From a virus: a stretch of 64,000 nucleotides of DNA. Positions 1 to 60,339 of this stretch are shown piece after piece. The notes beneath the pieces are model-generated. The model had not been told where the DNA came from and did not search any database. It worked only from the letters and a program-made list of their open reading frames with translations. The stretch lies in UHGV virus genome UHGV-1579991, one strand, 5' to 3'. The translations under genes were made by a program, and so were the position numbers. Position 1 is the stretch's first letter; every line of letters begins with the position of its first letter.

Positions 1-180
1 ACAACTCCACTTGCGCACAATGTATCAATCACTGAACAATGTTCTTAGCATCAATGAGGTCGCCAAATTGTGCTGAGGTGGGCGACAACTCCACTTGCGC
101 ACAATGTATCAATCACTGAACAATGTTCTTAGCATCAATGAGGTCGCCAAATTGTGCTGAGGTGGGTGATGACTCCACTT
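1..180. repeat. tandem direct repeat, 84-bp unit, about 2.1 copies (1-84; 85-168 with one mismatch; partial copy 169-180)
   Basis: Read directly from the sequence. The window starts inside the array, so further copies may lie upstream. Confidence 0.85.
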
Positions 181-197
181 ACAAATAACACAAAAAT

Positions 198-223
198 GCT
201 CCACTGAGAAATCTCAGTGGAGC
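198..223 (-). terminator. rho-independent terminator-like hairpin (11-bp stem, 4-nt loop) downstream of the gene ending at 251
   Basis: gctccactgag/aaat/ctcagtggagc; on the minus strand it is followed by a T-rich run (complement of caaaaat). Confidence 0.6.
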
Positions 224-250
224 ATTGCTTATATGTGAAGCATCTGTCAG

Positions 251-773
251 TTAGCTGACTTTCTTTGCATTCTTAAGTATGATTGATACGATATCACTAT
301 TGTTAACTTTGACAGATGGGTTTGACATTGGCAATGTAAACTTATCACCAACACCCAATGGATACTGCCATGCCATAGAAGTTAACAGTATAGGATTGCC
401 ACCAGGGCTTGTGCTGTTGATGTTGGCATACGCATTGATGTTGTAAATATTGCCGGTGCCACGGCCATCTGCTGCATAACAGCCAAAGCCAATTTTTGCA
501 GCAAAGTTTGAGTAGTCATAAGCTTTTGGCATCATTAACGCACCAATGGCGTAAGTTTCACCACCGCGGCATTCCATCATTTTGATAGGAAAGCCTGACG
601 TTGGTATGTTAACTGTCACATTGTCAAGCGATATTGTACCTTGTATCGCCATTGTTTCAGTAGTGCCAAAGTTGTACAATGAAGCATCACCAATAACAAG
701 CTGCAGGTAGACTAATTTAGAGCCCCCCCGCTAGCCCTTGTTGACGCTCAAACCAAAATTGTGGAGTTTTCAT
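251..773 (-). CDS. MKT-leader family protein A; leader and body are in different frames as sequenced (poly-G switch)
   Basis: Leader ORF MKTPQFWFERQQGLAGGL* (ATG at 773, stop 717-719). Body frame is open 251-730 with no ATG (track start is TTG at 679). Frames differ by +1 at the C7 run 723-729; one fewer G fuses leader to body. Paralogous leader at 2337. Confidence 0.5.
723..729 (-). repeat. homopolymeric tract, C7 on plus strand (G7 on coding strand), at leader/body junction of gene A
   Basis: Read directly from the sequence. Confidence 0.9.
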
Positions 774-832
774 ATGTTATATGTTTGAATGTTGTAAGAT
801 ATGTACATATTACATACAAAACTCCTCAAATT

Positions 833-1220
833 ATGAACAATACAATGAACTGGGGGGGGGACACAACAAGCCCTCCGAAGTAAGGCTGTGCAAGTAACAT
901 TTCTTGACTACAATGATGGCTATGAGACTTCATTTGAAACTATTGAAGTTCGTACAAACATGCGCACAATAGCAAATCTTATGAATGAATCTATGCCATT
1001 TGCACTAAAAGATAACGAATATGTCAAACAGTTTATCTTTGACATTTTCAATGGCAATGACAGCAGCAGTGTCGAAGTTACAATAACGTACAATGGCGAA
1101 ACAATATACACGGAAGACATACCGCCACAAGAAAGCTCGACATCATTACGTGCATATCTATCACTAAGACAAACAATCATAGGTGAAACGAATATGATTA
1201 GAGTTATTGAACACCTCTAA
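833..1220 (+). CDS. MNNTMNW-leader family protein B; leader and body are in different frames as sequenced (poly-G switch)
   Basis: Leader ORF MNNTMNWGGDTTSPPK* (ATG 833, stop 881-883). Body frame is open 849-1220 (track start is GTG at 888). Frames differ by +1 at the G9 run 852-860; one fewer G gives MNNTMNWGG-TQQALRSKAVQVTF... Confidence 0.5.
852..860 (+). repeat. homopolymeric tract G9 at leader/body junction of gene B
   Basis: Read directly from the sequence. Confidence 0.9.
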
Positions 1221-1231
1221 ACATCAAAAAA

Positions 1232-1259
1232 AACTCCGCTGAAATTTCTCAGTGGAGTT
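1232..1259. terminator. bidirectional terminator-like hairpin between convergent genes B (+) and C (-)
   Basis: About 11-bp stem with one G-T pair, flanked by an A8 run upstream and a T6 run downstream. Confidence 0.6.
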
Positions 1260-1276
1260 TTTTGATGTTGTAAATA

Positions 1277-1616
1277 TCAATCAATGTAATTGAATGCGAC
1301 ATTGAAATTGGTGCTACTAAGTTTACGACTCATCTCTGCAGGTGATGGCGTTACGCCCATTAGCTGAAATTTGCATTTCATAGTTGAGTCTACTATTGCA
1401 GTAACTGTGGCGCTGCCAGTGTATTGTTCAGAACCAACGCCACTGCTAAATAGCTTAACTAATTTAGTTGCAAGCTTATTGTTGACATCATAGTACGTAA
1501 TGTTTGCTGAGCCCTGCTTTGTTGAATTACATGTCACATTGTACTTAGCAGTCTTGTACGCCGGTCCAGCTTGGAGGGCTTGTTGTGCCCCCCCCCCAGT
1601 TCATTGTGTTGTTCAT
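1277..1616 (-). CDS. MNNTMNW-leader family protein C; leader and body are in different frames as sequenced (poly-G switch)
   Basis: Leader ORF MNNTMNWGGGTTSPPSWTGVQDC* (ATG 1616, stop 1545-1547). Body frame is open 1277-1600 (track start is GTG at 1537). C10 run 1588-1597; one fewer G gives MNNTMNWGG-AQQALQAGPAYKTAKYNV... About 70 nt of 5' UTR plus leader is nearly identical to gene B. Confidence 0.5.
1588..1597 (-). repeat. homopolymeric tract, C10 on plus strand (G10 on coding strand), at leader/body junction of gene C
   Basis: Read directly from the sequence. Confidence 0.9.
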
Positions 1617-1640
1617 GATTTGAGGAGTTTTATGTGAAAC

Positions 1641-2337
1641 TTACGCATATTTAAGTGAGTTTTGAATTTCATAGACATGTATCATGCTTGACGTACCTGC
1701 AACAATTGCACTAAACGCATTCATCAAAGGCGCCACATAGTCTGACGCAACAAACTGCCATGGTTCACATGCTTGCAATGTGCCAGCTACACTGCCGCCA
1801 ATCGTGAACGCAGAATTCAATCTATTTGACGCCAATACTGCAGTAGCAGTTATTAAGTTATCACTAATCATAACTTCTGCATTGACTGATACTCGTCTTG
1901 TGAGATTTACAGAAGTTTCAATAGTGCCTGACAAAGAACCTGCACGTGAATTTGATATTGTCAATCTTGCAGAGTATAAGTCGGGGAAGTCTATATTCAA
2001 TGTCGTCCTGTTGCCATAAATGATAGTGAAACTATTTGATATTAGTGATGCATCAGCTTCGTTATTTGCATCAAGCAACGCAAAACTGTGCGGTCTTGTA
2101 GTATCACCAGCAAGTTCTTTGTATTTATTGCCACGTAGCACGAATGTCAAAGAGCCGTCTTCGAATGTAACGAAGTTTGCATTGTAGACATTACCAGTGT
2201 CTTCACAATATAGCCAAACTGGCAAGCCGCATACAGCATGGTCTGCGTTATCTGTAGCATACAATGTGATAATAGTGTCACGAAGAGCCCCCCGCGATTG
2301 ACTGCTGGCGTTCAAACCAGAGTTGAGTAGTTTTCAT
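1641..2337 (-). CDS. MKT-leader family protein D; leader and body are in different frames as sequenced (poly-G switch)
   Basis: Leader ORF MKTTQLWFERQQSIAGGSS* (ATG 2337, stop 2278-2280). Body frame is open 1641-2333 with no ATG (track start is TTG at 2315). C6 run 2288-2293; one fewer G gives ...QQSIAG-ALRDTIITLY... Confidence 0.5.
2288..2293 (-). repeat. homopolymeric tract, C6 on plus strand (G6 on coding strand), at leader/body junction of gene D
   Basis: Read directly from the sequence. Confidence 0.9.
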
Positions 2338-2406
2338 AAGCGAAAAGACTTTTGTATGTGAAATTTATTGACATATTATATATCATGCTGCACTACGCAC
2401 AAAAAG

Positions 2407-2459: not shown

Positions 2460-3074
2460 CTATGATACAGTCCACGGGCAGTTTGCAGTAACCGTAACCG
2501 TAACAGCAGGAGTACCGGCCTGAGGAATCGTGATTTCCTGCTTGTCGAGTACCAGCGTCGGGTCACCAGCAGCCTGAACGATTGCAATCTGAGCAGTCTG
2601 AGCACCGTTGGCAGTTACCAAAATCGATGTCGTACGCTCGTCAATCGTCAAGTTGGCGGGAATATCAAGCTCAATGCTGAACGCAAACTCAGCGCTAGCA
2701 CCAGGGTCACCTGTAATTGCGACGCCATTGCCGGTTTCTGCACCAGCAACTGCGTACTTTGCAGGCAGCTCAATAACGAACTCGCCACCATCAACGATGC
2801 TGAATGCCAGCTTCGATGAGTTAGATACACCAGTTACGGTAAGAGTACCACCAGCCTTGGGAGCTGACATCTCTGAGCCGTTGTCAAATGACACGAACTC
2901 AGCCTTTGCAGTCTGCTGTACATTGTACGTTGAAGGCGCTGCAATACCAGCACCCTGAACGGTTACAACACCAGTACGTGCAACACGACCAGTGTGGGCG
3001 TCAGCAGAGTTGGAAATTGAACCATTACCCGAACCAGACGTCGGGGACAGTTTCAACCATGCGGGTTTAGCCAT
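2460..3074 (-). CDS. protein with Ig/BACON-like N-terminal domain (paralog 1 of 3), 204 aa
   Basis: N-terminus MAKPAWLKLSPTSGSGNGS...AHTGR is shared with the next two genes; the pattern resembles BACON/Ig-like domains (motif-level only). Confidence 0.7.
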   Translation of the reverse strand: MAKPAWLKLSPTSGSGNGSISNSADAHTGRVARTGVVTVQGAGIAAPSTYNVQQTAKAEFVSFDNGSEMSAPKAGGTLTVTGVSNSSKLAFSIVDGGEFVIELPAKYAVAGAETGNGVAITGDPGASAEFAFSIELDIPANLTIDERTTSILVTANGAQTAQIAIVQAAGDPTLVLDKQEITIPQAGTPAVTVTVTANCPWTVS

Positions 3075-3131: not shown

Positions 3132-3731
3132 TCAAAGAATTTTCCAAGAAGCGTTTGATGTCAAATTCATTGTGATTGTCGTGCCATCATCATCAACTGT
3201 TACAGATTCTGTACTCAGCACAAGAGTTGCTGCAGCAGCTGCTTGAGTAATGCTAACATTCAATGATTTGCCACCAGGAGTTGTCACAGTCAATACAAAT
3301 GATTTCTGTTCAATTGTCAAATTTTGCGGCACTGTAACTTCAATTGACCAAGCAAACTTTGCAATATATCCTGGGTCATTTGCAATTGCAGCATCATTTG
3401 TTGCAGCAGTGCCATTTGCAGTGTACGCAGTCGGAATGTTAAGATTCGGATTTGCAGTTGCAAATTTTAGCTTTGCTGCATTAGACTCACCAGAAACGAC
3501 AATTTTTGTGGTGGCTGCAGTCACATTGTATGATGCTGTGCCAGATACAAATTCTGCAAGAGCAGCTTGGTTGATTGTTGCTTGCTTTGTAACTGTTGGT
3601 GTGGTCTTCGTTTGCACAGTCGCAATTGTGCTACGAATGCCTCTGCCGGTATGAGCTCCTGCAGTAAATGCCAGGATGTCATTGCCCTCACCAGACATCG
3701 GTGAACACTGTGCCCATATAGCTTTTGCCAT
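3132..3731 (-). CDS. protein with Ig/BACON-like N-terminal domain (paralog 2 of 3), 199 aa
   Basis: N-terminus MAKAIWAQCSPMSGEGND...AHTGR; C-terminus is Thr/Ala-rich and variable. Confidence 0.7.
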   Translation of the reverse strand: MAKAIWAQCSPMSGEGNDILAFTAGAHTGRGIRSTIATVQTKTTPTVTKQATINQAALAEFVSGTASYNVTAATTKIVVSGESNAAKLKFATANPNLNIPTAYTANGTAATNDAAIANDPGYIAKFAWSIEVTVPQNLTIEQKSFVLTVTTPGGKSLNVSITQAAAAATLVLSTESVTVDDDGTTITMNLTSNASWKIL

Positions 3732-8186: not shown

Positions 8187-10115
8187 TTATCGAACATGCC
8201 AAAGAGTGTTCGACTTCACATTTACAGAGCTCTTAAAGTTATTATGACTGCACAACCAAACATGTGACTTATCAAGTTCTACATAAGCATCTGACTTTAA
8301 GAATGCTTCAGAAGATTTGCTTGTCTGTTGCTTTGTCATTGATGCATCACCTACAAGCATTGCAGTCGAACCTTTGTACACTTGTTGTGCATCATCTGCA
8401 ATCAACGTAGCTTCAAATGGCTGTTGCTGCATAAGCAATGCAAGCGTAGACCTACATGCATCTTTGTCTACTCGTATATGTGTGATTTTGCCAGCAAAAC
8501 CATACAGCTGAACAATGTCTGAGTCATTTGACCAGTCATGCAAAATTGATGTAGACTTAACAACTTCTGTCAAGATTTGCATGTCATTGACTGCGGTCGA
8601 TGTTGACAAACTCAGTACAAGTTCAACGTCACCATTGTTAAGATTGCGTTGTCTAATGACTACGCCGTTCCAGCTCTTGCAAATCTTATCATCTACGCTT
8701 GCTAAGCTTTCGCCAGTTTTGACATCAAGCACATGTAACAAGCCAGATGACACTATAAGCATCAATCTGCCAAGTCGCATCAGTTGCCATGATGCTGCTT
8801 GAGCTTTTGCATTGTCTTCAAGCATAAACAAGCAACATGCAGACCAATCTGACACATCAAGTGATTTGACATACTCAACTGCGATGTCATTGCCAACAGC
8901 ATTCATATCATAAAACGCACCAGACACTGGCACATATTTGAATGACAGCGGTGATTCATTTACACTGACCGCTTTATGAACAAATCTGCGATTTGTCTCA
9001 TACATACTCAAGTCAACATGAGTATCATTAACAAACATATTGAGAGCGATGTCTTCAACTTGTTCGGTCGCAATTTTGTCTGCATCAAAAGCATCGAATG
9101 TTTTTGTGAGCTCGTCCAAATTAAGCATCTCTTTTACATCATCAGCAACTTGCATCTTAGACTCGTCACGATATTCAGGTCGATGCTCATATGACTTCAA
9201 TGTCAGCTCATAATATGGTGTCGATAACATAATGCCATCTGGATGCTGCACAGATGCGACTTCAAGCATTCGATTTGCTATTGGCACATAGCAATAATCG
9301 AATTGCTGTGGTTGTTTGCCAATGCCAAACACTCGTTCATATTCTGCTTTTGGCACATGAGCCGTTATACCTTGTTCAAAGTCAATGTCAAATGTGTCAT
9401 ATGTGACTTTGTTCGTGCTAAATTCATTGTCAACAACCATCAGCTTCAGCCACTTAACTGCACCAGTATGAATCAAGTCATATGCACGTAATGATGCTAC
9501 ACGATGCTCATCTGACACTTCATGGCTGAACCAGATAACAACATGACCAAGCTGACGATTCACAGCATTTACAATGTTGTCTTGCAATGCTATAGCATCT
9601 TGCATGTGCGTGTATGGATTGTACAAATGATTGTCTGACTCAATGACAATTGACGCATGTTTTGCTGGTGCAAAAATCTCGTCAGCATATGTGACATTGT
9701 CAACAGACTCTTCATTGACTTTGATGTCTTCAAGCACATATGAGTCATGACGAACATTTGCTGCATCTGTCCATTGCTTGCGCCATGCAACATCAACAAT
9801 CATAATGAACTTAACATGTACAGGCTCATCTGCAGTTGCATATGCAAGCACGAATTCATTCAAATGTGTTGCAGCATCGTACACAGAACCAGGTTCAGAC
9901 CATGTCTTGCCAGCATCTACAGACCATTTGAACTGCACATTGAGCATTGCACGACATTGCTCAGCATTATCAACAAGCTCAATATTATTCAATGAGCCTT
10001 TGATATCTGCAGCAAATTCAAGATACAGTGTAGAATCTTGTCTTACGATGATGCAATCGTCATCAGCCTTTTGTGACACTGACTGCTTTGTTGATTCGTT
10101 TGATGACTTTGCCAT
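8187..10115 (-). CDS. hypothetical protein, 642 aa (structural block)
   Basis: Long ORF co-directional with its neighbours; no motif recognised. Confidence 0.7.
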   Translation of the reverse strand: MAKSSNESTKQSVSQKADDDCIIVRQDSTLYLEFAADIKGSLNNIELVDNAEQCRAMLNVQFKWSVDAGKTWSEPGSVYDAATHLNEFVLAYATADEPVHVKFIMIVDVAWRKQWTDAANVRHDSYVLEDIKVNEESVDNVTYADEIFAPAKHASIVIESDNHLYNPYTHMQDAIALQDNIVNAVNRQLGHVVIWFSHEVSDEHRVASLRAYDLIHTGAVKWLKLMVVDNEFSTNKVTYDTFDIDFEQGITAHVPKAEYERVFGIGKQPQQFDYCYVPIANRMLEVASVQHPDGIMLSTPYYELTLKSYEHRPEYRDESKMQVADDVKEMLNLDELTKTFDAFDADKIATEQVEDIALNMFVNDTHVDLSMYETNRRFVHKAVSVNESPLSFKYVPVSGAFYDMNAVGNDIAVEYVKSLDVSDWSACCLFMLEDNAKAQAASWQLMRLGRLMLIVSSGLLHVLDVKTGESLASVDDKICKSWNGVVIRQRNLNNGDVELVLSLSTSTAVNDMQILTEVVKSTSILHDWSNDSDIVQLYGFAGKITHIRVDKDACRSTLALLMQQQPFEATLIADDAQQVYKGSTAMLVGDASMTKQQTSKSSEAFLKSDAYVELDKSHVWLCSHNNFKSSVNVKSNTLWHVR

Positions 10116-11624: not shown

Positions 11625-12074
11625 CTATTGATGATTGTTGTTATCACACTTGTTGAGCAACTGGTCATAGTACGTTTGCTCTGTCTTACGTTGCTGCTCT
11701 ATCAAAATAATGATTTGTTCCATTTGAATTTCAAATGCAGTGTTTTTGCGAACAAGTGCTTTATGTTGCTCAGTAGTTAATGCTGCGTCAAGAATGTCCA
11801 ACATATCTGCATGATATGCAGCAATAATTTTGTTGTATTGCTGCATAGCAGTTTGCAAAGATTCAAATGACTGGTCAGATAGTGTTGACAAAATCTGGAC
11901 ATGCATTTTGTCAGTCAAGTCAATTTTTGCTTGCAACAAATCACGTTCTGCTGAATGCTTTCTGTCAATGTTGATGATAAACATCATCAAAATCATCAAT
12001 ACAAAAGCTATAACAGTCTTGTAGTTCTTGTCATCAATGAATCGCAGCAAAAATATGTCTAAAAACTTTTCCAT
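11625..12074 (-). CDS. hypothetical membrane-anchored coiled-coil protein, 149 aa
   Basis: Hydrophobic segment VIAFVLMILMMFIINI followed by a Q/E/K-rich helix-like region. Confidence 0.55.
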   Translation of the reverse strand: MEKFLDIFLLRFIDDKNYKTVIAFVLMILMMFIINIDRKHSAERDLLQAKIDLTDKMHVQILSTLSDQSFESLQTAMQQYNKIIAAYHADMLDILDAALTTEQHKALVRKNTAFEIQMEQIIILIEQQRKTEQTYYDQLLNKCDNNNHQ

Positions 12075-17589: not shown

Positions 17590-18090
17590 TTATGAAAGCT
17601 GAGCCGTAGTGTACCAAGTTAAGTCAGATTCATTGTACGTCAATGCAATTGTAAGAGCTTGACCAAGTTGCTGTGACAATTGCTTACATGAATCAATGAA
17701 TGCTTGCATATCTGCATATGACTTTGTGTAGAACATGCACCATTCTGTTGTATTGACTGCGACATTATGAACATCTGCAAGATGACAGACTTCTACAGAT
17801 GATACATTAAAGTCTGAGCCATCTTCATCAACATGATGCACATTGTTTGCGCACCAATATTGATACAGACGAGCTTTGTCTGATGCAGTCATGTCAAACT
17901 GCATGCGTTGAGCAATTGATTCATCGATGTTATTAATGAATTGCTTTGCTGATTTTGACTCAAGCATCGCATGATGCAGTGTATGATTTGCATGCCAGTC
18001 TGGAGTGCCGATTGCTACGCTAAGCTGATTTTCAAACACAAACTGCTGTGCTTGAGCTTCTTCGTAGCATTGTGTCCATGTCTTTGTCAT
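17590..18090 (-). CDS. hypothetical protein, about 166 aa; start trimmed
   Basis: Track ORF ran into the sigma gene; start moved to ATG 18090 (MTKTWTQCYEEAQ...). Confidence 0.55.
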   Translation of the reverse strand: MTKTWTQCYEEAQAQQFVFENQLSVAIGTPDWHANHTLHHAMLESKSAKQFINNIDESIAQRMQFDMTASDKARLYQYWCANNVHHVDEDGSDFNVSSVEVCHLADVHNVAVNTTEWCMFYTKSYADMQAFIDSCKQLSQQLGQALTIALTYNESDLTWYTTAQLS

Positions 18091-18208
18091 GTTGTTTATC
18101 TTAAGTTTGTATATGTACAAATAATGTTGATGTTGTATTGAAGCATCGCAAAATAAGGCCAGACTACTCGGTTGAGCTTGCCTGACCTTTTCAAATGCAT
18201 TTTGCTTA

Positions 18209-19105
18209 TTACAGTGTTCCGCAAAGCAATTCACGTAAATCCATGCCAGCTTGTGTACTATACTGAGCAATAAGATTACGTTCTGAATCAGACATGCTCC
18301 AATAAATCTTATGCTGAGCTCTACGAATAATAGTATGAATGCCAGATGTGCTACAATTGAACTTCTTTGCAAGTTCTGCATGAGTTAGCAAATCAGCATC
18401 ACCAAGGCCATACACATGTGTGAGTACAAGCTTTTCATTTTGAGTGAGTTGTTCAAATGCTCTTTGCAGAATCTTTGTGTTGCGTTTGTGAGCATCCTCG
18501 ATTTCAAGAACTTCTTGGCCTGTTTTGAAGTCTGACCTCAAATCATTCTGAACTGGTGACCATGCATCACCATCTTTGTCAAGTGTAGTGTCATCCTTGC
18601 TGGTGAATTGTTTGCCTTCAAGAGCTCTTTCATATGCTCCACGAATGCCAGTAGATAATTGTTGACTTGTCAAATTGAGTTCATCAAGTACATATTTCTT
18701 AATCCAAGGATATGCATATGTGCTAAACTTTGCTTCACGAACTCCTGCAGGCAATACGCCTTCTACATAATTCTTGGCTGCTATTGACAATCCAAGATTG
18801 CCTGCTTGAATGACATCATCCAGCGGAACTGAGCGTTTGCCAGATGCGAACCATAAGCTTCGTGCAACTGATATGACCAGTCTTAAGCAAGATTTGATAA
18901 GAGCTTCACGATTTTCTTGAGTCTTCTTGAATCGAGTAACATCACAATATCGCTTTGCAGTAGCCAGCGATTTGACTTCTTCAGGAGTAAGCTCATTCTC
19001 CATCCTCATTTGCTTGAGCTCCTCCTTTGTGTATAGACGTTCTCTTGTTATTCTACCTACGTCCTTTACGTAGCCTTGATTGATTTGTGAATTTGAACCT
19101 GCCAT
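18209..19105 (-). CDS. sigma-70 family RNA polymerase sigma factor, 298 aa
   Basis: Region-2-like FSTYAYPWIKKYV and region-4-like HTH (LTHAELAKKFNCSTSGIHTIIRRAQHKI). Confidence 0.65.
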   Translation of the reverse strand: MAGSNSQINQGYVKDVGRITRERLYTKEELKQMRMENELTPEEVKSLATAKRYCDVTRFKKTQENREALIKSCLRLVISVARSLWFASGKRSVPLDDVIQAGNLGLSIAAKNYVEGVLPAGVREAKFSTYAYPWIKKYVLDELNLTSQQLSTGIRGAYERALEGKQFTSKDDTTLDKDGDAWSPVQNDLRSDFKTGQEVLEIEDAHKRNTKILQRAFEQLTQNEKLVLTHVYGLGDADLLTHAELAKKFNCSTSGIHTIIRRAQHKIYWSMSDSERNLIAQYSTQAGMDLRELLCGTL

Positions 19106-19208: not shown

Positions 19209-20267
19209 TTATGAACATTTTGTTAACAATGCATGACCACAATCATAAACTGCAACATAGCCAGTGTTAAGCATCTCTTGCTCATCTTGGCCGGCGTCTA
19301 CAATATGTTCTTTGCTGTTAAGTTTGACCCAGTGCTTGCAGATTGTTGACTTATCATCTGACAATTTAGGGTTAATGCAGAAGTCTGTTGAGCTTATTGT
19401 GTTGTCGAGATGCTGTTTGATGATATTGACAACTTGTTCAGGCGTCATCCAATCAAACACTGTTATGCAAGTGTAGCCATGCTTGAGGGCAAGCTGAGTT
19501 TTGTTGAAGTGATAGTCGAATGGGAGCGCATAGTTATGCTTAGACTTGCCAATTGCATATGCATAGCCATACGTAGAGTTGTGACTGATTGTTGGGCAAA
19601 TTTCAATCAGCAAATGCTTATAATGCAGGTCATATGACTGGCGTTCAATATTGACGTCATCACAGTCAAATGCAAGCCCAAGTTCTTGTAGCAGCAAAGT
19701 TTGCCATCGTTTGTTTGTAGCTGATATGACATTTTTGTGAGCATTGCGACATTTTTGATGCATACAAAAGAATGGGACACCATATTTTTGCTGCATCAAT
19801 TTAGTGTCAATGCCTGCTGCATTGCCATAACGTTCAAGCTTCGTTGCTCTAATTTTGTCAGCATCACCCCAAATGTTGCCATATCGTTTGCGCTTTGTGT
19901 CTTGAGACTTCTTAATGTTGCCACTGCGGTTGCCATAAATAAGTTCCTTTGATTGACACGCATGTTCAGCAGCATCTGGCCCATATATGTGACCGTATTT
20001 TTGAAGCTTAATTTCATTGATACGTTCTACTGGGCCATTTGGATGACCATAGCGTTCTTGTTTGATGCGTTTTGTGTGCTCAATTGTTGACTTTAATGCA
20101 AGCTTTGACGTAACGCCAAATTTGCGCAAACAGCCTATTCTAATATTGAAACTACGTTTAATATGCGATGCTTCTATTTTTGTAACAGCCAATTGCAATG
20201 CAGCATCACGTTCAGTTTCAAGCATGCAAATTTGTTCATCAATTGTCATAGCATCAAACCATTTCAT
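19209..20267 (-). CDS. repeat-rich (RYG-x-G) putative free-standing homing endonuclease or DNA-binding protein, paralog 1
   Basis: Tandem roughly 18-aa (R/K)YG repeats and a conserved C-terminal domain (LIEICPTISHNSTYGYAYAIGKSK) shared with 35445-36719 and 48935-50126. Confidence 0.7.
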   Translation of the reverse strand: MKWFDAMTIDEQICMLETERDAALQLAVTKIEASHIKRSFNIRIGCLRKFGVTSKLALKSTIEHTKRIKQERYGHPNGPVERINEIKLQKYGHIYGPDAAEHACQSKELIYGNRSGNIKKSQDTKRKRYGNIWGDADKIRATKLERYGNAAGIDTKLMQQKYGVPFFCMHQKCRNAHKNVISATNKRWQTLLLQELGLAFDCDDVNIERQSYDLHYKHLLIEICPTISHNSTYGYAYAIGKSKHNYALPFDYHFNKTQLALKHGYTCITVFDWMTPEQVVNIIKQHLDNTISSTDFCINPKLSDDKSTICKHWVKLNSKEHIVDAGQDEQEMLNTGYVAVYDCGHALLTKCS

Positions 20268-35444: not shown

Positions 35445-36719
35445 TTATATATTTGACAGCTGTTTGCGTTGCAAAATTGCATGACCGCAGTCATATACTG
35501 CAACATAACCTGCATCAATCATCTCTTGCTCATTTTGTCCGCAGTCTTCAATATGTTCTTTTGTCTTTAAATGACACCAGTGTTTGCGAATTGTTGACTT
35601 GTCATCTGACAGTTGCGGATTAAGTGCGAAGTTAGTTGAGTCTACTGGTTCACCTGCAAGATGCTTTCGAATGACATCAATGACTTCATTGTCATCCATC
35701 CATTCGAATATTGTAATGCAAGTGTAGCCAAGCTTAAGAGCAAGCTGAGTTTTGTCGAAGTGATAGAATTTGCTAACATGCTTATTGTGTGTAGTACGGC
35801 CAATTAAATATGCAAAACCATATGTTGAATTGTGTGACCAAGTTGGATTGATTTCAATCAATAATTTGCAATGTTCATTACTGTAATTGAGGTCATATGA
35901 CCATCGCTCAAGATTGACATCATCAAGCCCACAATCAATCCCAAGTTCTTGCAGCAATTTGTCATGCCACCAATGGTTTGCTCGTGATTTTACATGACCT
36001 TGAGCATCACGACATTTAGCAGTCATACAAAAATATGGGACACCATAGCGTTGCATGTTAGTTGACGCAATTTTTTGCAAATCGCCTGCAGCAGACCCAT
36101 ATTTTTGTCGTTTTGTTGCAACTGCTACTGCAATATTGCCAAATTTGTTGCCATATCGTTTCTGTTTAGTTTCAAGTGCTTTGTCAATATTTATGATGCC
36201 TCTTGTACCATGTTCTTTTTCACGTTTAGCTAAAATTGTTTGCATGTCGCCAAGTTTGTTGCCATATCGTTGCAATTTAGTTTCATGCATTTTTGCAATA
36301 TTTGTCCAACTATCACCATAATGTTGTCTATGTGTTGCAGCGCAACGTGCTTTGTCACCAAACATGTGTCCAAACTTTGCTAAACGACGCTCAACAAATT
36401 TTTGCATGTCACCCATGCCATTACCATATCGTTTCTGCTTAGTTGCAACAGCCTTTTGCATATTGACACCTCGATAGCCATAACGCATTTCTATTGTTGT
36501 AGTAATTTTATCACTGATGACTTTTGATTGCTGAGCATACTCAAAACCATATTTACGCAAGCAGCCAATTCGCTTATTATATTTCAAACGAATTTTACCA
36601 TGTGATGTCTTCTTTGGGCCATACCATTCATATGGCGTTTCTGCAATCAATTTATCACGTTCAGCTTCAAGTTCTTTTATTCGAGCTTCAAGAGCTTCAC
36701 CTATTAATTGTGTTGCCAT
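35445..36719 (-). CDS. repeat-rich (RYG-x-G) putative homing endonuclease or DNA-binding protein, paralog 2, 424 aa
   Basis: Same repeat architecture and C-terminal domain (LIEINPTWSHNSTYGFAYLIGR) as the gene at 19209-20267. Confidence 0.7.
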   Translation of the reverse strand: MATQLIGEALEARIKELEAERDKLIAETPYEWYGPKKTSHGKIRLKYNKRIGCLRKYGFEYAQQSKVISDKITTTIEMRYGYRGVNMQKAVATKQKRYGNGMGDMQKFVERRLAKFGHMFGDKARCAATHRQHYGDSWTNIAKMHETKLQRYGNKLGDMQTILAKREKEHGTRGIINIDKALETKQKRYGNKFGNIAVAVATKRQKYGSAAGDLQKIASTNMQRYGVPYFCMTAKCRDAQGHVKSRANHWWHDKLLQELGIDCGLDDVNLERWSYDLNYSNEHCKLLIEINPTWSHNSTYGFAYLIGRTTHNKHVSKFYHFDKTQLALKLGYTCITIFEWMDDNEVIDVIRKHLAGEPVDSTNFALNPQLSDDKSTIRKHWCHLKTKEHIEDCGQNEQEMIDAGYVAVYDCGHAILQRKQLSNI

Positions 36720-47523: not shown

Positions 47524-47919
47524 TTATCGGTTCTTTGAAAATGAAACTTGCGTTGATTGCTGTGGTCGAACATCAACAAACACTGAATCTACTGCGTCAA
47601 ACTTAAGCGTAGCAAGTGAATCAATTGTTTGCCTTGCTTTTTGCAAATTGCGTGCTTTGATGCCTGATACTGTTGCAGATTTTTCAAGCAGATATGCATC
47701 ACGAGGCGTCCAGTAGCGAGCCTGCCAACGCATATGCATAGAGTCGACAACCAAATTTTCTGCTGCAGCATCAATAATTGCTGCAGTTGATTGCTGAGTT
47801 GCATCAAGTCGTTGCTGCAATACTGCTAATTGCTTTGTGTGCTGCTGTTGATGTTTGAATACTATGCTGATTGCTCCAAATAAGAGAAACCATGCAATAA
47901 AACGCAAAAATGACTTCAT
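47524..47919 (-). CDS. hypothetical membrane-anchored protein, 131 aa
   Basis: N-terminal hydrophobic segment FIAWFLLFGAISIVF. Confidence 0.5.
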   Translation of the reverse strand: MKSFLRFIAWFLLFGAISIVFKHQQQHTKQLAVLQQRLDATQQSTAAIIDAAAENLVVDSMHMRWQARYWTPRDAYLLEKSATVSGIKARNLQKARQTIDSLATLKFDAVDSVFVDVRPQQSTQVSFSKNR

Positions 47920-48890
47920 GATTGCTGCACGAATTTTGAGAGCTCGAATGACAATGCGAGCATTGTTATGAATTGGTCAATTGACTGTTTAGACTCTACA
48001 CTGTATTTGTGAGCTGCAATGACAATGTCTCCAAGTCGTGCAACAAAACCAGGCGTATTCTTTGAGAGCTTTGCATAGCACCAATTTGCAAAGTCAGTTG
48101 AGAGAGCATTGATGACTTCAGTTTCACGACCTTTGTATTGTGACAATGTTTTGTAAAATTCACGCGGGTCTTTGCATGCGACAATGAAGTCATACAGTTC
48201 TTCAAACTTTGCTGACATGCCCTTTGTGACATGCTCAAGCGTTATATGACGCTCACCTTGATTGAAGACAAAGTAGCAAATGTTCAGAATTTTGCGGAAG
48301 TCTGGATAGTTATCTTGAATTAGCTTGATGAGCGCTTCTTTTTCAATGGTGCATTCATTTTCCTTCAAGATATTGTAGACGCGAACCATGCACTTCTTCA
48401 TCAACTGTTCTGCAATATCATCAGAAAAGTCGAATGACAGCATTTTGAGACGAGATTGAGCAATTGATGCATCAATACGGTCTGGATAATTGCAAGTTGC
48501 AATGAAAAACGCAATGCCTGCAAACTCTTCAATGGTGCCTCGCAAAGCCATCTGGCTTTGTGTCGATAGATAATCCATTTCATCAAGCAGCACAACCTTT
48601 ACGCCACTTGACGACAATGACATATGCTGACAGAATTCTGAAATTGTGTTGCGAACTGTGTCAATGCCAGAATTCTTTGAGCAGTTGATTTGCAGAATTG
48701 AACGTCTATCAGTCCACTTCAATGCCAATGCTCTTGCTGCGGTTGTTTTTCCACTTCCTGGTGCTCCTGCGAACAAATAATTTTGCGGCTGACCATTAAA
48801 TGCCGCAGCATAATCATCAGGCACAATTAACTCTTCGACTTTTGTTGGCCTGTAGCGTTCTAACCAAGTTCTATCTTTAAGGGATGCCAT
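47916..48890 (-). CDS. clamp loader subunit (RFC / gp44-like AAA+ ATPase), about 324 aa; start trimmed
   Basis: WLERYRPTKVEEL ... LFAGAPGSGKTT (Walker A) ... LLDEMDYL (Walker B); start moved to ATG 48890 (MASLKD). Confidence 0.75.
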   Translation of the reverse strand: MASLKDRTWLERYRPTKVEELIVPDDYAAAFNGQPQNYLFAGAPGSGKTTAARALALKWTDRRSILQINCSKNSGIDTVRNTISEFCQHMSLSSSGVKVVLLDEMDYLSTQSQMALRGTIEEFAGIAFFIATCNYPDRIDASIAQSRLKMLSFDFSDDIAEQLMKKCMVRVYNILKENECTIEKEALIKLIQDNYPDFRKILNICYFVFNQGERHITLEHVTKGMSAKFEELYDFIVACKDPREFYKTLSQYKGRETEVINALSTDFANWCYAKLSKNTPGFVARLGDIVIAAHKYSVESKQSIDQFITMLALSFELSKFVQQS

Positions 48891-48934
48891 TTGTTGTTTG
48901 TTGATATATGTAAAAATATTGTACAACAATACTG

Positions 48935-50126
48935 TCATTTTTGCACAGCATGGCCGCAATCGTACACAGGCACATAACCAGCGTCAAGCATTTGTTGTTC
49001 ATCTACTTCTGCAGTATGCGCAGCATACAGTCGCTTCTTGTAATTCCACCAATGTTTTCTAATAGTCAATTTGTCATTGCATATGACAGGATTTTTTGAC
49101 AAGTCTGTGCTATCTACACGTTCATTGCATAAATGCTGTCGTATGATTTCTACAACGTCATCAGGGTTATCCCAATCCCATATTGTAATGCATATGTAGC
49201 CTGCTGTAAGTGCTGCTTGAGTTTTTCTAAAATGTCTATCATTAGGAATTGGCAAATTGCGTTTAGATTTGCCAATTGCATATGCAAAGCCAAATGCAGC
49301 ATTATGTGAAAACGATGGGTTGATTTCTATTAGTAGATGCTTATAATGCAAATCATAAGAAAATCTGCCAATATTGACATCATCAAATGTGCAATCAATG
49401 TTAAGTCGTTGCAGCAAAAAATCATGCCACCAACGATTAACCGTTGTAATGGTGCGCCCATTAGCATGCCGACAACGCTCAGTCATAACAAACCAAGGTA
49501 CACCATAGCGTTCAAGATTTGTTTGCATGCGTTTTGCAGTGCCACCATATTCATCACCGTATCGTAATCTGCGTGTATGAACTGCTTTTAATGGGTTGCC
49601 AGCAGAATTGCCATATCGTAGCATCTTTGTTTGCTGCGCTTTAGCAGTAATTACACCATGGTCAGGATAGTGTTCGCGTATTGTTTGCTGCACTTTAGTA
49701 GCATTCCATGTGCGATAGCCGTACTTGTGTAATTTTGTTTGCTGGGCTTTTTGCATGTTGTTATAATATGGGTCGCCATAGCGTTCTTCTTTAATTTTGC
49801 ACATTAACTGTTGGTCGCCAAATGCATTGCCATATTTTGCAAGTTTTGTTGCCTTAAATTTAGTCATGTCGCCAAGCCCATTGCCATATCTTTCTCGTTT
49901 TGTTGCGACACCTTTGTTTGTAAATTCTTTTTAATTGCGCAGTGTTTTCAACACCATATTTACGCAAATTGCTTATACGACTGTTATATGTACGTTTGCA
50001 AATTGTGTATTGTGAGTAGCGTTTATGCTGAGGTCGTTCTTTAGACGCAGTTTGCAATATCACATCTCTTTCCTCTTCAAGTTCTTTTATGCGAGCTTCA
50101 AGAGCTTCTCCAGTTAATGGTTCCAT
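48935..50126 (-). pseudogene. repeat-rich (RYG-x-G) homing-endonuclease-like gene, paralog 3, split by a frameshift
   Basis: Two overlapping ORFs (49860-50126 and 48935-49867); homology to paralog 2 continues across a T5 run at about 49928-49932 only if one base is removed. Confidence 0.6.
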
Positions 50127-50155
50127 ATGTCATTTGTGTAAATGTCAACAAAAAT

Positions 50156-60134: not shown

Positions 60135-60235
60135 ATGTAGAGATTTTTGTAGTTTGTATCAATTGCATTCTATATCAATTGCATCTTGTATCAAATACAT
60201 TATATTGATATATGATAATTGTACTACAAAAATCC

Positions 60236-60339
60236 CAAATTTGCACACTTTGATAATCAAAAGTGCAAACAAAATTCAAAGTTATATTGTACATCATAAA
60301 GTGCAAATTTGCACTTTATGATGCTGCAAAATGTTTGCA
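60236..60339. promoter_or_regulatory. cluster of TTTGCAC/GTGCAAA half-sites including a 20-bp perfect palindrome aaagtgcaaatttgcacttt (about 60298-60317)
   Basis: Read directly from the sequence; AT-rich intergenic region that also carries two atcaattgcat direct repeats (about 60158-60184). Confidence 0.4.

What the first reader, a model, noticed from the sequence alone, without database searches (positions are those of the whole stretch)
700..2345. Four paralogous genes with conserved leaders joined to variable bodies through poly-G tracts, every one out of frame by the same +1
Two leader types occur twice each: MKTPQFWFERQQGLAGG (ATG 773) and MKTTQLWFERQQSIAGG (ATG 2337); MNNTMNWGG (ATG 833, plus strand) and MNNTMNWGG (ATG 1616). 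Each leader ends in Gly codons supplied by a coding-strand G run (G7 at 723-729, G9 at 852-860, G10 at 1588-1597, G6 at 2288-2293) and stops a few codons later. The downstream body ORFs have no ATG (track starts are TTG or GTG) and lie in the +1 frame. In all four cases one fewer G (or two more) fuses leader to body, and for the MNNTMNW pair the homology continues across the tract in the fused frame ((T/A)QQAL). I found no other G or C homopolymer of 6 or more anywhere else in the 64 kb, whereas an A7 run inside terL is in frame. Candidate mechanisms are slipped-strand phase variation, transcriptional slippage at the G run, or +1 ribosomal frameshifting; the conserved leaders could be targeting peptides for variable cargo or receptor-binding modules. 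A systematic homopolymer insertion error cannot be excluded, and a fifth +1 disruption at a T5 run in a homing-endonuclease paralog (about 49930) leans that way.
Basis: partly seen in the sequence, partly recalled or inferred. Interest (0 to 1): 0.9.

Follow-up and report, generated by a model that had tools for sequence, protein, structure and literature searches.

The report
Poly-G on/off switches in phage genes
A large human-gut phage of Bacteroidota carries small genes in which a shared start segment joins different protein bodies through a run of G's whose length varies between otherwise identical genomes, so these look like stochastic on/off switch genes, so far described in phages only for Campylobacter phages.

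Summary
The only four G/C runs of 6 or more in 64 kb lie in 723-2293, each 19 or 44 nt after the ATG of a conserved leader. In all four, removing one G fuses leader to body.

Best explanation: hypermutable poly-G contingency loci, i.e. DNA-level phase variation.
- A 2183-bp block from another sample matches the window with 0 mismatches and one gap, which is G8 versus G7 in gene g1.
- Across 17 other assemblies, 50 units show all three frame states: 8 in frame, 22 with one extra base, 20 with two.
- In-frame ATG fusions exist in relatives.
- The bodies are under purifying selection, including the codons just after the tract, so they are not pseudogenes.
- GGG is a rare Gly codon in this genome, so the tracts are maintained.

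The "same +1" regularity is not general. That argues against programmed +1 frameshifting. Short-read (MEGAHIT, SPAdes) assemblies that reproduce the same lengths argue against a homopolymer error.

New points: leaders and bodies are swapped exactly at the tract, and inverted promoter-leader-tract repeats flank the gene array, which is found in both orientations.

The function of the bodies is unknown. They are predicted beta-rich and sit next to tail and BACON genes. Read-level heterogeneity was not testable.

Verdict: new variant of a known kind.

The parts
251..773 (-). Unit g1. Leader MKTPQFWFERQQGLA (773-730), G7 tract (729-723), 156-codon body (722-254) and stop (253-251). OFF as written; G6 or G9 would give a 173/174-aa protein.
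   Evidence: Tract alleles in relatives are G7, G8, GGGAG7 and T+G7. Body dN/dS is 0.09-0.48. In the first 26 codons after the tract, 6 variable codons are synonymous-only and 1 changes the amino acid.
833..1220 (+). Unit g2. Leader MNNTMNW (833-851, with W overlapping the tract), G9 tract (852-860), body TQQALRSK... (861-1217) and stop (1218-1220). OFF; G8 or G11 would give 128/129 aa.
   Evidence: The same G9 is found in three other assemblies of this strain.
1277..1616 (-). Unit g3. Leader MNNTMNW (1616-1598), G10 tract (1597-1588), body (A)QQALQAGP... (1587-1280). OFF; G9 or G12 would give 112/113 aa.
1641..2337 (-). Unit g4. Leader MKTTQLWFERQQSIA (2337-2294), G6 tract (2293-2288), body ALRDTIITLY... 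(2288-1644). OFF; G5 or G8 would give 231/232 aa.
   Evidence: The body is P0001, the only match among 5.8 billion proteins. Residues 33-140 weakly resemble a repeated beta-sandwich unit of a 2325-aa protein.
2269..2385 (-). Repeated promoter-like region + leader + poly-G + about 19 nt. This is the constant module of the MKTTQL units and one arm of the inverted repeats that flank the gene array in relatives.
   Evidence: 97-100% identical copies occur at several loci in relatives. In L008 the arms are 8717-8827 and 11742-11850. The window diverges from L016 at 2269 and from L007 at 2385.
799..876 (+). Left arm of the 78-nt inverted repeat shared by g2 and g3: upstream region, leader, tract and CACAACAAGCCCTCC. 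The right arm is 1573-1650.
1573..1650 (-). Right arm of the g2/g3 inverted repeat.
195..226 (.). Terminator-like hairpin with 14 pairs, downstream of g1. A related hairpin lies at 1234-1269 between g2 and g3, and another at 2407-2435 ends the upstream BACON gene. Together with the unit-specific upstream regions, these suggest separate transcription units.
1..168 (-). Two copies of an 84-bp tandem repeat. Each encodes, on the minus strand, a stopped N-terminal fragment (..SPTSAQFGDLIDAKNIVQ*) of a third small-gene family of the same array (MAVQTR..KPTSAQFGDLIDS..).

Best explanation
The four genes belong to a phage-borne family of simple-sequence contingency loci. Each unit appears to be a separate transcription unit: it has its own conserved upstream region, and terminator-like hairpins lie between units. 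Each starts with a short conserved leader, either MKT(T/P)Q(L/F)WFERQQ..A or M....NW. A coding-strand poly-G tract supplies the Gly codons that join the leader to one of many unrelated, predicted beta-rich bodies.

Slipped-strand mispairing during replication would change the tract by +/-1 G. That would switch each gene between one in-frame (ON) state and two truncated (OFF) states. In bulk consensus sequence most units read OFF. The genes are still kept functional by selection. This fits a population in which only a minority of genomes has any given member ON (bet-hedging).

The tract and the shared leader also act as recombination joints. Leaders and bodies are exchanged exactly at the tract. 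The whole gene array, bracketed by inverted promoter-leader-tract repeats, is found in both orientations.

Shown here: the anatomy, tract-length polymorphism in an isogenic background, all three frame states, in-frame alleles, purifying selection, leader swaps, and both junction types.

Inferred: replication slippage as the cause, heterogeneity within populations, reversibility, and the function of the proteins. The proteins are probably virion-associated accessory or host-recognition proteins, given the adjacent baseplate, neck and BACON genes.
For: 1. Tracts are exceptional and clustered. There are four G/C runs of 6 or more, all within 1.6 kb, and none elsewhere in 64 kb.

2. They are maintained against codon bias. 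GGG is 26 of 820 Gly codons in 22 long ORFs, and none of 55 Gly-Gly pairs is GGG-GGG.

3. Isogenic polymorphism. L019 (ENA ERZ28658723) equals window 112-2293 with 0 mismatches and 1 gap, which is g1 G8 against G7. The Logan assembly of ERR1136811 also gives G8 (the two records share contigs, so probably the same sample). ERZ27260843 gives G7 like the window.

4. Variation across relatives:
- gA: G6 and G7
- g1: G7, G8, GGGAG7 and T+G7
- MQIPRNW unit: G9 and G10
- MTFKLNW tract: G7, G8, G9 and G10
- 50 observations in total: 8 ON, 22 with one extra base, 20 with two.

5. In-frame ATG fusions exist: MNITMNW-G7-g1 body (L006), MQIPRNW-G9 (L009), and MKTTQLWFERQQSIAGV-ALRDTG..., which the collection's gene calls list as a 233-aa ORF (L028).

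6. Bodies are under purifying selection although OFF. dN/dS is 0.09-0.52 at dS 0.07-0.26, with no indels in five strains each. The codons between the tract and the first internal ATG show 6:1 and 4:1 synonymous-only to replacement changes. Translation must therefore enter through the tract.

7. The leader is constrained as a peptide. There are four synonymous differences in E-R-Q-Q between g1 and g4.

8. A precedent exists. Campylobacter Fletchervirus phages use poly-G tracts in receptor-binding protein genes (Sorensen et al. 2021, as cited and summarised in PMC11959909 and PMC12823448).
Against: No reads were available. Heterogeneity within a population, and switching itself, were therefore not observed.

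ON alleles are under-represented among units with the MKT leader (1 of 29 observations; naively (2/3)^10 = 0.017 if the alleles were independent). The single ON allele has an interrupted, presumably stabilised tract. This needs the added assumption that ON is costly or mutually exclusive among members.

The longest tracts (G9, G10) are identical in all assemblies of the window's strain, whereas naive expectation is that they vary most.

OFF alleles of the NW-leader units always carry one extra G (12 of 14 observations, no two-extra state). A length bias, biological or technical, is therefore not excluded.

The function of the bodies is unknown.
Confidence: 0.7

Rival explanations
1. Expression by recoding rather than DNA change. 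RNA polymerase slips on the G run, or the ribosome shifts on GGG GGG G. A fraction of product would then be full length although the DNA is OFF.
For: Nearly all consensus alleles are OFF, yet the bodies are under purifying selection. Every OFF allele is by definition one slip away from ON. G9/G10 tracts are constant within the strain. NW-leader OFF alleles always carry one extra G.
Against: The same gene occurs in both OFF frames and, in relatives, ON (gA with G6 and G7; g1 with G7 and G8; MQIPRNW with G9 and G10). No single direction of shift can serve all of these. No stimulatory structure was found: fold z-scores are -0.3 to -1.8, and there is no Rfam match at gathering score. From general knowledge, bacterial transcriptional slippage is documented mainly on long A/T runs.
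Confidence: 0.13
2. Sequencing or assembly artefact. Homopolymer length is miscalled and the real genes are plain in-frame fusions.
For: All four window tracts carry one extra base. A further one-extra-base disruption sits at an A5/T5 run in a homing-endonuclease paralog. Contigs often end in or near the tracts.
Against: The related contigs come from MEGAHIT (k119) and SPAdes (NODE) short-read assemblies, where consensus errors at G6-G8 are rare (general knowledge; platform inferred from the contig names). G9, G10 and G6 are reproduced in independent assemblies and samples. Two assemblies that share contigs and probably come from one sample agree on G8. Frame states 0, 1 and 2 all occur. The tract position is conserved, against codon bias, in 17 other assemblies.
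Confidence: 0.05
3. Decaying pseudogenes, or leader uORFs with the bodies translated from internal TTG/GTG/ATG starts. The tract would then have no switching role.
For: Gene callers start the bodies at TTG, GTG or an internal ATG. Interrupted tracts are locked OFF (GGGTGGG, GGGAG7, T+G7). One g1 body is truncated (L023, 117 aa). A 29-aa remnant follows the MTFKLNW tract.
Against: dN/dS is well below 1, and full-length bodies without indels are kept in five diverged strains each. The codons between the tract and the internal starts change almost only synonymously. A stop lies just upstream of the tract in the body frame. In-frame ATG fusions exist.
Confidence: 0.07

Closest known systems
Hypermutable poly-G tracts in Campylobacter Fletchervirus phages (Sorensen et al. 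2021, Cell Rep 35:109214; original not held, known here through PMC11959909 and PMC12823448)
   Same: A lytic myovirus carries poly-G tracts inside genes, so that length changes create phenotypic subpopulations. The tracts are linked to host-recognition genes.
   Different: The host phylum differs (Bacteroidota; terL is closest to Chryseobacterium and Tenacibaculum phages), and the host is not known for poly-G switching. Here the tract sits at a fixed place 19 or 44 nt into a conserved promoter-leader module. That module is shared by many unrelated bodies, with at least 7 units per genome in one relative. The tract doubles as a recombination joint, and the array is bracketed by inverted repeats. 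A receptor-binding function is not shown.
Bacterial contingency loci with repeats in the leader-coding region (Neisseria pilC poly-G in the signal-peptide region, opa CTCTT repeats; from general knowledge)
   Same: A short repeat lies early in the ORF, the N-terminal leader is conserved, the family has several paralogs, OFF products are very short, and family members recombine.
   Different: This locus is in a virus. The leader is not a secretion signal, and the bodies are unrelated to each other rather than variants of one protein.
T4 internal proteins with a capsid targeting sequence (CTS MKTYQEFIAE; PMC8442874, PMC9026906, PMC3012670)
   Same: A conserved N-terminal peptide of 10-19 aa is joined to highly diverse bodies in a T4-related phage. 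The leader here begins MKTxQ and has aromatic residues at positions 7-8, like the CTS.
   Different: Only 4 of 10 identities. No (L/I)xE cleavage motif is evident. The bodies are predicted beta-rich and not highly basic (pI 4.5-9.3). The locus sits by tail and BACON genes. T4 IP genes have no poly-G switch.
Invertible tail-fibre segments and shufflons (Mu G segment with Gin, P1 C segment with Cin, R64 shufflon; van de Putte 1980 as cited in PMC12823448)
   Same: Inverted repeats bracket a segment of alternative genes, and both orientations are found. A constant 5' part is joined to alternative 3' parts.
   Different: No invertase gene is seen nearby. Both arms carry a full promoter and leader, so inversion alone does not silence anything. 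The arms are about 110 nt, long enough for general recombination.

Membership tests
Simple-sequence (homopolymer) contingency / phase-variable loci | A homopolymeric tract inside the 5' coding region, whose length sets the reading frame | tested here: met
   All four tracts lie 19 or 44 nt after the ATG, and -1/+2 G restores ORFs of 112-232 aa.
Simple-sequence (homopolymer) contingency / phase-variable loci | Tract-length polymorphism between otherwise identical or near-identical genomes | tested here: met
   2183 bp with 0 mismatches, the only difference being G7 against G8. G6/G7, G9/G10 and G7-G10 at orthologous sites.
Simple-sequence (homopolymer) contingency / phase-variable loci | Tracts over-represented against the genome background and codon usage | tested here: met
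   12 hits against 0.61 expected. GGG is 3% of Gly codons and 0 of 55 Gly-Gly pairs are GGG-GGG.
Simple-sequence (homopolymer) contingency / phase-variable loci | The gene stays functional: selection on the coding body, and ON alleles exist | tested here: met
   (dN/dS 0.09-0.52; synonymous-only changes right after the tract). (three in-frame alleles).
Simple-sequence (homopolymer) contingency / phase-variable loci | High-frequency, reversible switching within a clonal population | not testable with these tools
   Needs raw reads, single-molecule sequencing or plaque-lineage experiments.
Programmed ribosomal frameshift / transcriptional slippage site | A fixed frame offset conserved among orthologs | tested here: not met
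   the same genes occur in frame states 0, 1 and 2.
Programmed ribosomal frameshift / transcriptional slippage site | A conserved stimulatory RNA structure or a known recoding motif | tested here: inconclusive
   z-scores -0.3 to -1.8, with only a small G-run:CCCUCC hairpin in the NW-leader units; no Rfam family at gathering score.
T4-type capsid-targeting-sequence (internal/ejected) proteins | A short conserved N-terminal propeptide shared by unrelated bodies | tested here: met
T4-type capsid-targeting-sequence (internal/ejected) proteins | Sequence match to the CTS and a prohead-protease (L/I)xE cleavage site | tested here: inconclusive
   MKTTQLWFER against MKTYQEFIAE (CTS quoted in PMC8442874) gives 4/10 identities and no clear IxE. 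No other ORF in the window carries the leader.
T4-type capsid-targeting-sequence (internal/ejected) proteins | Packaging into the head and cleavage of the leader | not testable with these tools
   Needs virion proteomics.
Invertible segment / shufflon | Inverted repeats bracketing the variable segment | tested here: met
   L008 arms 8717-8827 and 11742-11850, 97%. In the window's strain the arms are identical.
Invertible segment / shufflon | Both orientations observed | tested here: met
   The g4 block abuts the BACON gene in the window but the 159-aa-gene side in L007. gA abuts BACON in six contigs but the 159-aa side in L022. Caveat: these are assembly-level junctions through a repeat of about 117 nt, so chimeric joins are not excluded.
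Invertible segment / shufflon | A dedicated site-specific invertase next to the segment | tested here: not met
   No recombinase family appears among the called neighbours or in the flanking window ORFs. Many neighbours have no hit at all.

The most novel reading that the evidence does not exclude
This gut Bacteroidota phage carries a combinatorial variation system. Poly-G tracts act as stochastic ON/OFF switches. They also act as universal recombination joints between a few promoter-leader modules and a large pool of cargo bodies, inside an invertible array. Each virion lineage would then display, or inject, a different small subset of accessory proteins. The all-OFF consensus would reflect mutually exclusive expression across the population.
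Probability: 0.35. Interest if true: 0.8.

Novelty: new variant of a known kind. Interest (0 to 1): 0.66.

Why it matters
Phase variation by hypermutable repeats is a hallmark of bacterial pathogens. In phages, a 2025 review (PMC11959909) calls the Campylobacter phage case "exceptional".

This locus would extend the principle to a large human-gut phage of Bacteroidota, whose hosts themselves phase-vary their surfaces. It adds three features:
- a modular promoter-leader-tract cassette shared by many unrelated genes
- exchange of leaders and bodies exactly at the tract
- an array flanked by inverted repeats and found in both orientations.

It also warns annotators. The collection's gene calls start these genes at TTG/GTG/internal ATG, assemblies break at this locus, and the consensus hides the expressed minority.

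The idea is directly testable with existing public reads.

Tried and rejected
- **Family searches.** Pfam and PHROGs scans of the four fused proteins and of six relatives' proteins gave no significant family. A PDB sequence search of the g1 body gave nothing.
- **Structure prediction.** AlphaFold2 gave mean pLDDT 36.1 for the g4 body and 42.7 for the g1 body. These are too poor for a fold search, so none was run.
- **Remote homology.** HMMER against 1.8 billion representatives found only three remote hits, one of them a repeated unit in a 2325-aa protein. This gives a fold hint only.
- **Cultured phages.** Megablast against INPHARED phages found no match.
- **NW-leader pattern.** The DNA pattern gave no hit in IMG/VR.
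- **Bacterial genomes.** The leader pattern gave no hit in 100,044 bacterial genomes, so there is no host clue.
- **Shared upstream motif.** AATTTCACATAYAAAA is not enriched elsewhere in the window, so it is not a general phage promoter.
- **RNA.** Folding and Rfam searches found no recoding element.
- **Homing-endonuclease frameshift.** No IMG/VR contig carries the site, so it could not be compared.
- **Double-glycine (bacteriocin-type) leader idea.** The leaders end in Gly-Gly and have hydrophobic residues at -4 and -12. A papain/C39-like peptidase lies about 3.5 kb from the array in relatives. The cargos are 100-240 aa, the NW leader is only 7-9 aa, no transporter is present, and the one ON allele with the MKT leader reads G-V. 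This is kept as a low-probability lead.
- **Window identity.** The idea that the window is simply contig ERZ27260843 k119_20060 was rejected. The flanks differ on both sides of the shared 2336 bp.
Full report
**1. The observation**

The region was read directly. Homopolymers were counted over the whole window. The only G or C runs of six or more are C7 at 723-729, G9 at 852-860, C10 at 1588-1597 and C6 at 2288-2293. The next longest is one C5 at 20948. The hexamer GGGGGG gives 12 hits on both strands, against 0.61 +/- 0.90 in 100 dinucleotide-preserving shuffles.

Each tract is on the coding strand of a short ATG-led ORF:
- MKTPQFWFERQQGLAGGL* from 773(-)
- MNNTMNWGGDTTSPPK* from 833(+)
- MNNTMNWGGGTTSPPSWTGVQDC* from 1616(-)
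- MKTTQLWFERQQSIAGGSS* from 2337(-)

Editing the tract in silico shows that one G fewer, or two more, gives ORFs of 173, 128, 112 and 231 aa. All other lengths give 16-63 aa.

**2. The tracts are maintained**

In 22 long ORFs of the window, GGG is 26 of 820 glycine codons. None of 55 Gly-Gly pairs is GGG-GGG. The tracts are therefore held against codon preference.

The g2 and g3 units share a 78-nt inverted repeat that covers the upstream region, the leader, the tract and 15 nt beyond it. The g1 and g4 leaders are only 76% identical as DNA. Their four differences in codons E-R-Q-Q are all synonymous. The leader is therefore conserved as a peptide.

**3. Context**

No Pfam or PHROG family matches the four proteins. 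Upstream on the same strand lie:
- two small proteins with BACON-like N-termini, one of which reaches Pfam's BACON threshold (2460-3074, 3132-3731)
- a 1442-aa repeat protein
- a protein with weak, sub-threshold neck/head-closure similarity
- a baseplate wedge protein.

The window also holds a protein with a tape-measure-like segment, terL and replication genes. The closest cultured relatives of terL are Chryseobacterium phages MA9V-1/2 and Tenacibaculum phage PTm1, followed by a long list of phages of Escherichia, Synechococcus and other hosts. This is a phage of about 175-180 kb, probably of Bacteroidota. Sample names such as ZEEV15 suggest human gut, but this was not verified.

**4. Relatives**

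Relatives were collected in four ways:
- a degenerate DNA pattern for the MKT leader, scanned in IMG/VR and in metagenomes
- exact-protein look-ups
- a scan for relatives of the adjacent BACON protein in IMG/VR
- a search with a neighbouring gene family.

These gave 29 loci from 17 other assemblies. The decisive comparisons follow.

(a) L019 is ENA ERZ28658723 scaffold_16335. It equals window 112-2293 with 0 mismatches and a single gap. That gap is the g1 tract, G8 instead of G7. The Logan assembly of ERR1136811 also gives G8; the two records share contigs, so they probably come from the same sample. ENA ERZ27260843 k119_20060 (L007) matches window 50-2385 at 100%, including G7, G9, G10 and G6.

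(b) Orthologous tracts differ between strains:
- gA: G6 in 3 assemblies and G7 in 5 (one with its leader cut by a contig end)
- g1: G7, G8, GGGAG7 and T+G7
- MQIPRNW unit: G9 and G10
- MTFKLNW tract: G7, G8, G9 and G10
- gB: G7 and G5TGG
- the two LRAP-type bodies: G7 (L005) and GGGTGGG (L001).

(c) Over 50 assembly-level observations, 8 units are in frame, 22 carry one extra base and 20 carry two. In-frame ATG fusions are:
- MNITMNW-G7-g1 body (L006)
- MQIPRNW-G9 (L009)
- MKTTQLWFERQQSIAGV-ALRDTG..., which the collection's gene calls list as a 233-aa ORF (L028).

The window's uniform one-extra-G state is therefore not a rule. In the same strain g1 is found in the other OFF frame.

**5. The OFF genes are not dead**

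Nei-Gojobori estimates on the body frames give dN/dS of 0.09-0.48 for g1, 0.11-0.35 for gA and 0.21-0.52 for gB. dS is 0.07-0.26. Lengths are identical in five diverged strains each.

The stretch between the tract and the first internal ATG has 6 synonymous-only variable codons against 1 replacement in g1. In gA the figures are 4 against 1. In g1, four of the synonymous-only codons lie before the TTG that gene callers could use as a start.

In the window's g1-g3, the body frame has a stop just upstream of the tract. In g4 a TTG inside the leader opens the body frame, and gene callers use it. In G7 alleles of the MKTTQL units the body frame has a stop and no start before the tract. Where the stop is present, translation of these codons has to arrive from the leader frame. 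That requires either a change in tract length or slippage during expression.

**6. Mechanism**

DNA-level slipped-strand variation explains all of the following:
- polymorphism confined to the tract in an isogenic background
- the presence of all three frame states
- conservation of an otherwise disfavoured homopolymer
- the early position of the tract, which keeps OFF products at 16-23 aa in the window
- purifying selection despite an OFF consensus.

Directional programmed frameshifting is disfavoured, because the same gene occurs in both OFF frames and ON. No significant downstream structure or Rfam element was found. Non-directional transcriptional slippage cannot be excluded.

It would even help to explain one uncomfortable fact. 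Units with the MKT leader are almost never ON in consensus (1 of 29 observations, and that allele has an interrupted tract). OFF units with the NW leader always carry one extra G (12 of 14).

An alternative reading of that bias is as follows. Several family members share one leader, and so perhaps one docking site. If about one member is ON per genome, every member would still read OFF in the majority consensus. This is inference and needs single-molecule data.

A homopolymer-calling artefact is unlikely. The contigs are MEGAHIT and SPAdes short-read assemblies, judging by their names. The lengths are reproduced between samples and assemblers. In-frame alleles also occur.

**7. Recombination at the tract**

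The g1 body is found behind three different leaders: MKTPQFW... (window), MKTTQLW... (L029) and MNITMNW (L006). In each case the junction lies exactly at the G run. For the L006 case the G run is the only sequence the two parents share.

The window is 99.98% identical to L016 over 4307 nt, up to 19 nt past the g4 tract. It then continues into a different body: g4 in the window, gA in L016.

In the one contig that spans the whole array (L008), inverted repeats of about 110 nt bracket the array. They consist of the promoter-like region, the leader, the tract and about 13 nt more, and are 97% identical. One end abuts the BACON gene. The other abuts a divergently transcribed set of small genes, of 103 and 159 aa.

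Joining L016 and L007, which overlap at their ends, gives the following array for the window's strain:
- BACON gene
- gA
- MQIPRNW unit
- MTFKLNW tract
- three genes of the third family
- 84-bp repeats
- g1, g2, g3, g4
- 159-aa gene.

The window instead has g4-g3-g2-g1 next to the BACON gene. L022, a SPAdes contig, has gA next to the 159-aa side. Both complementary junctions of an inversion of the whole array are therefore seen in independent assemblies.

The repeat is about 117 nt, close to the assembler's k of 119, so chimeric joins are not fully excluded. Several contigs end inside the array or in a tract. That is what repeats or population heterogeneity would produce.

**8. Function**

This part is inferred. 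The bodies are predicted to be mostly beta strands, but the AlphaFold models are unreliable (pLDDT 36 and 43). Residues 33-140 of g4 weakly match a repeated unit of about 130 aa in a 2325-aa protein.

The position after baseplate, neck-like and BACON genes suggests virion-surface or host-recognition accessory proteins. So does co-residence with a third small family that has a conserved N-terminus, MAVQTR..KPTSAQFGDLIDS. That family has 47 homologs, mostly on short contigs.

A competing idea is a T4-like capsid-targeting peptide. The T4 CTS is MKTYQEFIAE (PMC8442874), and diverse internal proteins share only the CTS (PMC3012670, PMC9026906). The resemblance to MKTTQLWFER is 4 of 10 residues. 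It is a lead, not a test.

**9. Comparison and novelty**

The closest described system is the poly-G tracts of Campylobacter Fletchervirus phages. [quoted passage not shown] Full-text searches found no description of poly-G switches in Bacteroidota or gut phages.

I rate this a new variant of a known kind. The switch principle is the same. The differences are the host phylum, a modular leader cassette shared by many unrelated genes, tract-centred module exchange, and an array flanked by inverted repeats.

Noticed in passing
window 1-168 (and L007 12136-12266, L016 5769-7615): An 84-bp tandem repeat has at least 2 copies in the window and about 1.5 in L007. It encodes stopped N-terminal fragments of a third array family (MAVQTR(S/N)VLKTYFETGDKPT(S/A)AQFG(D/N)LIDS ... 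LVNRA(F/L)Y). That family has a conserved N- and C-terminus and a variable middle. There are 47 homologs of 36-55% identity, mostly on short contigs. Paralogs sit in both orientations, so more inversions are possible.
   Followed up: partly
window 49860-50129 (minus strand): A homing-endonuclease paralog is split into two frames near an A5 run (..CAATTAAAAAGAATTTAC..). One base fewer would join them. Intact or partial paralogs lie at 19209-20267, 35445-36719 and 47916-49867. No IMG/VR contig carries the site, so it could not be compared.
   Followed up: partly
L006 10518-11515 (minus strand), IMG/VR contig 3300045988_152288: Inside the array of a relative lies a 333-aa lipoprotein-like gene (MIKKMICIAVCAWMCASC...). 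It has a G8 tract (in frame) right after the lipobox cysteine, followed by repeated W..I.YGNGKFV..G..G.I..S.DG..WT units that look propeller-like. Poly-G switching may therefore extend to non-virion accessory genes.
   Followed up: no
L008 9917-9942, L009 10276-10304, L016 5631-5659, L028 2732-2758, L029 6864-6891: An MTFKLNW leader plus a poly-G of 7, 8, 9 or 10 is followed by only a 29-codon frame. It lies about 110 nt upstream of a third-family gene. It is either a decayed unit or a tract acting on the promoter or 5' UTR of that gene.
   Followed up: partly
L007 6007-6621, L008 15537-16151, L028 8035-8649: A 204-aa papain-like peptidase (Pfam Peptidase_C1, weak Peptidase_C39_2) lies about 3.5 kb from the far end of the array. 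Both leader types end in Gly-Gly, as supplied by the tract, and the MKT leader has hydrophobic residues at -4 and -12. This is reminiscent of double-glycine leaders and has not been tested.
   Followed up: no
window 60201-60255 and L007 9880-9935, L022 1066-1127: A 56-nt element (..TATATTGATATATGATAATTGTACTACAAAAATC.CAAATTTGCAC..) occurs at the far flank of the array and again at 60.2 kb in the window, at 90-93% identity. It may be a shared divergent promoter or regulatory region.
   Followed up: no
window 852-876 and 1573-1597: In the NW-leader units the G run can pair with the conserved CCCUCC 9 nt downstream, giving a hairpin of 6-7 pairs in both g2 and g3. The whole-segment fold z-scores are not significant.
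   Followed up: partly
L009, L017, L019, L007, L016 contig ends: Assemblies of this phage repeatedly end inside the array, in the 84-bp repeat or in a poly-G tract. One scaffold ends exactly at ..GAAGAGCCCCCC. This is a practical sign of repeats or heterogeneity.
   Followed up: partly
window 18209-19105: This ORF matches a phage RNA polymerase sigma-factor family (phrog_351, E 5e-25). It overlaps the next ORF (17590-18381) by about 170 nt.
   Followed up: no
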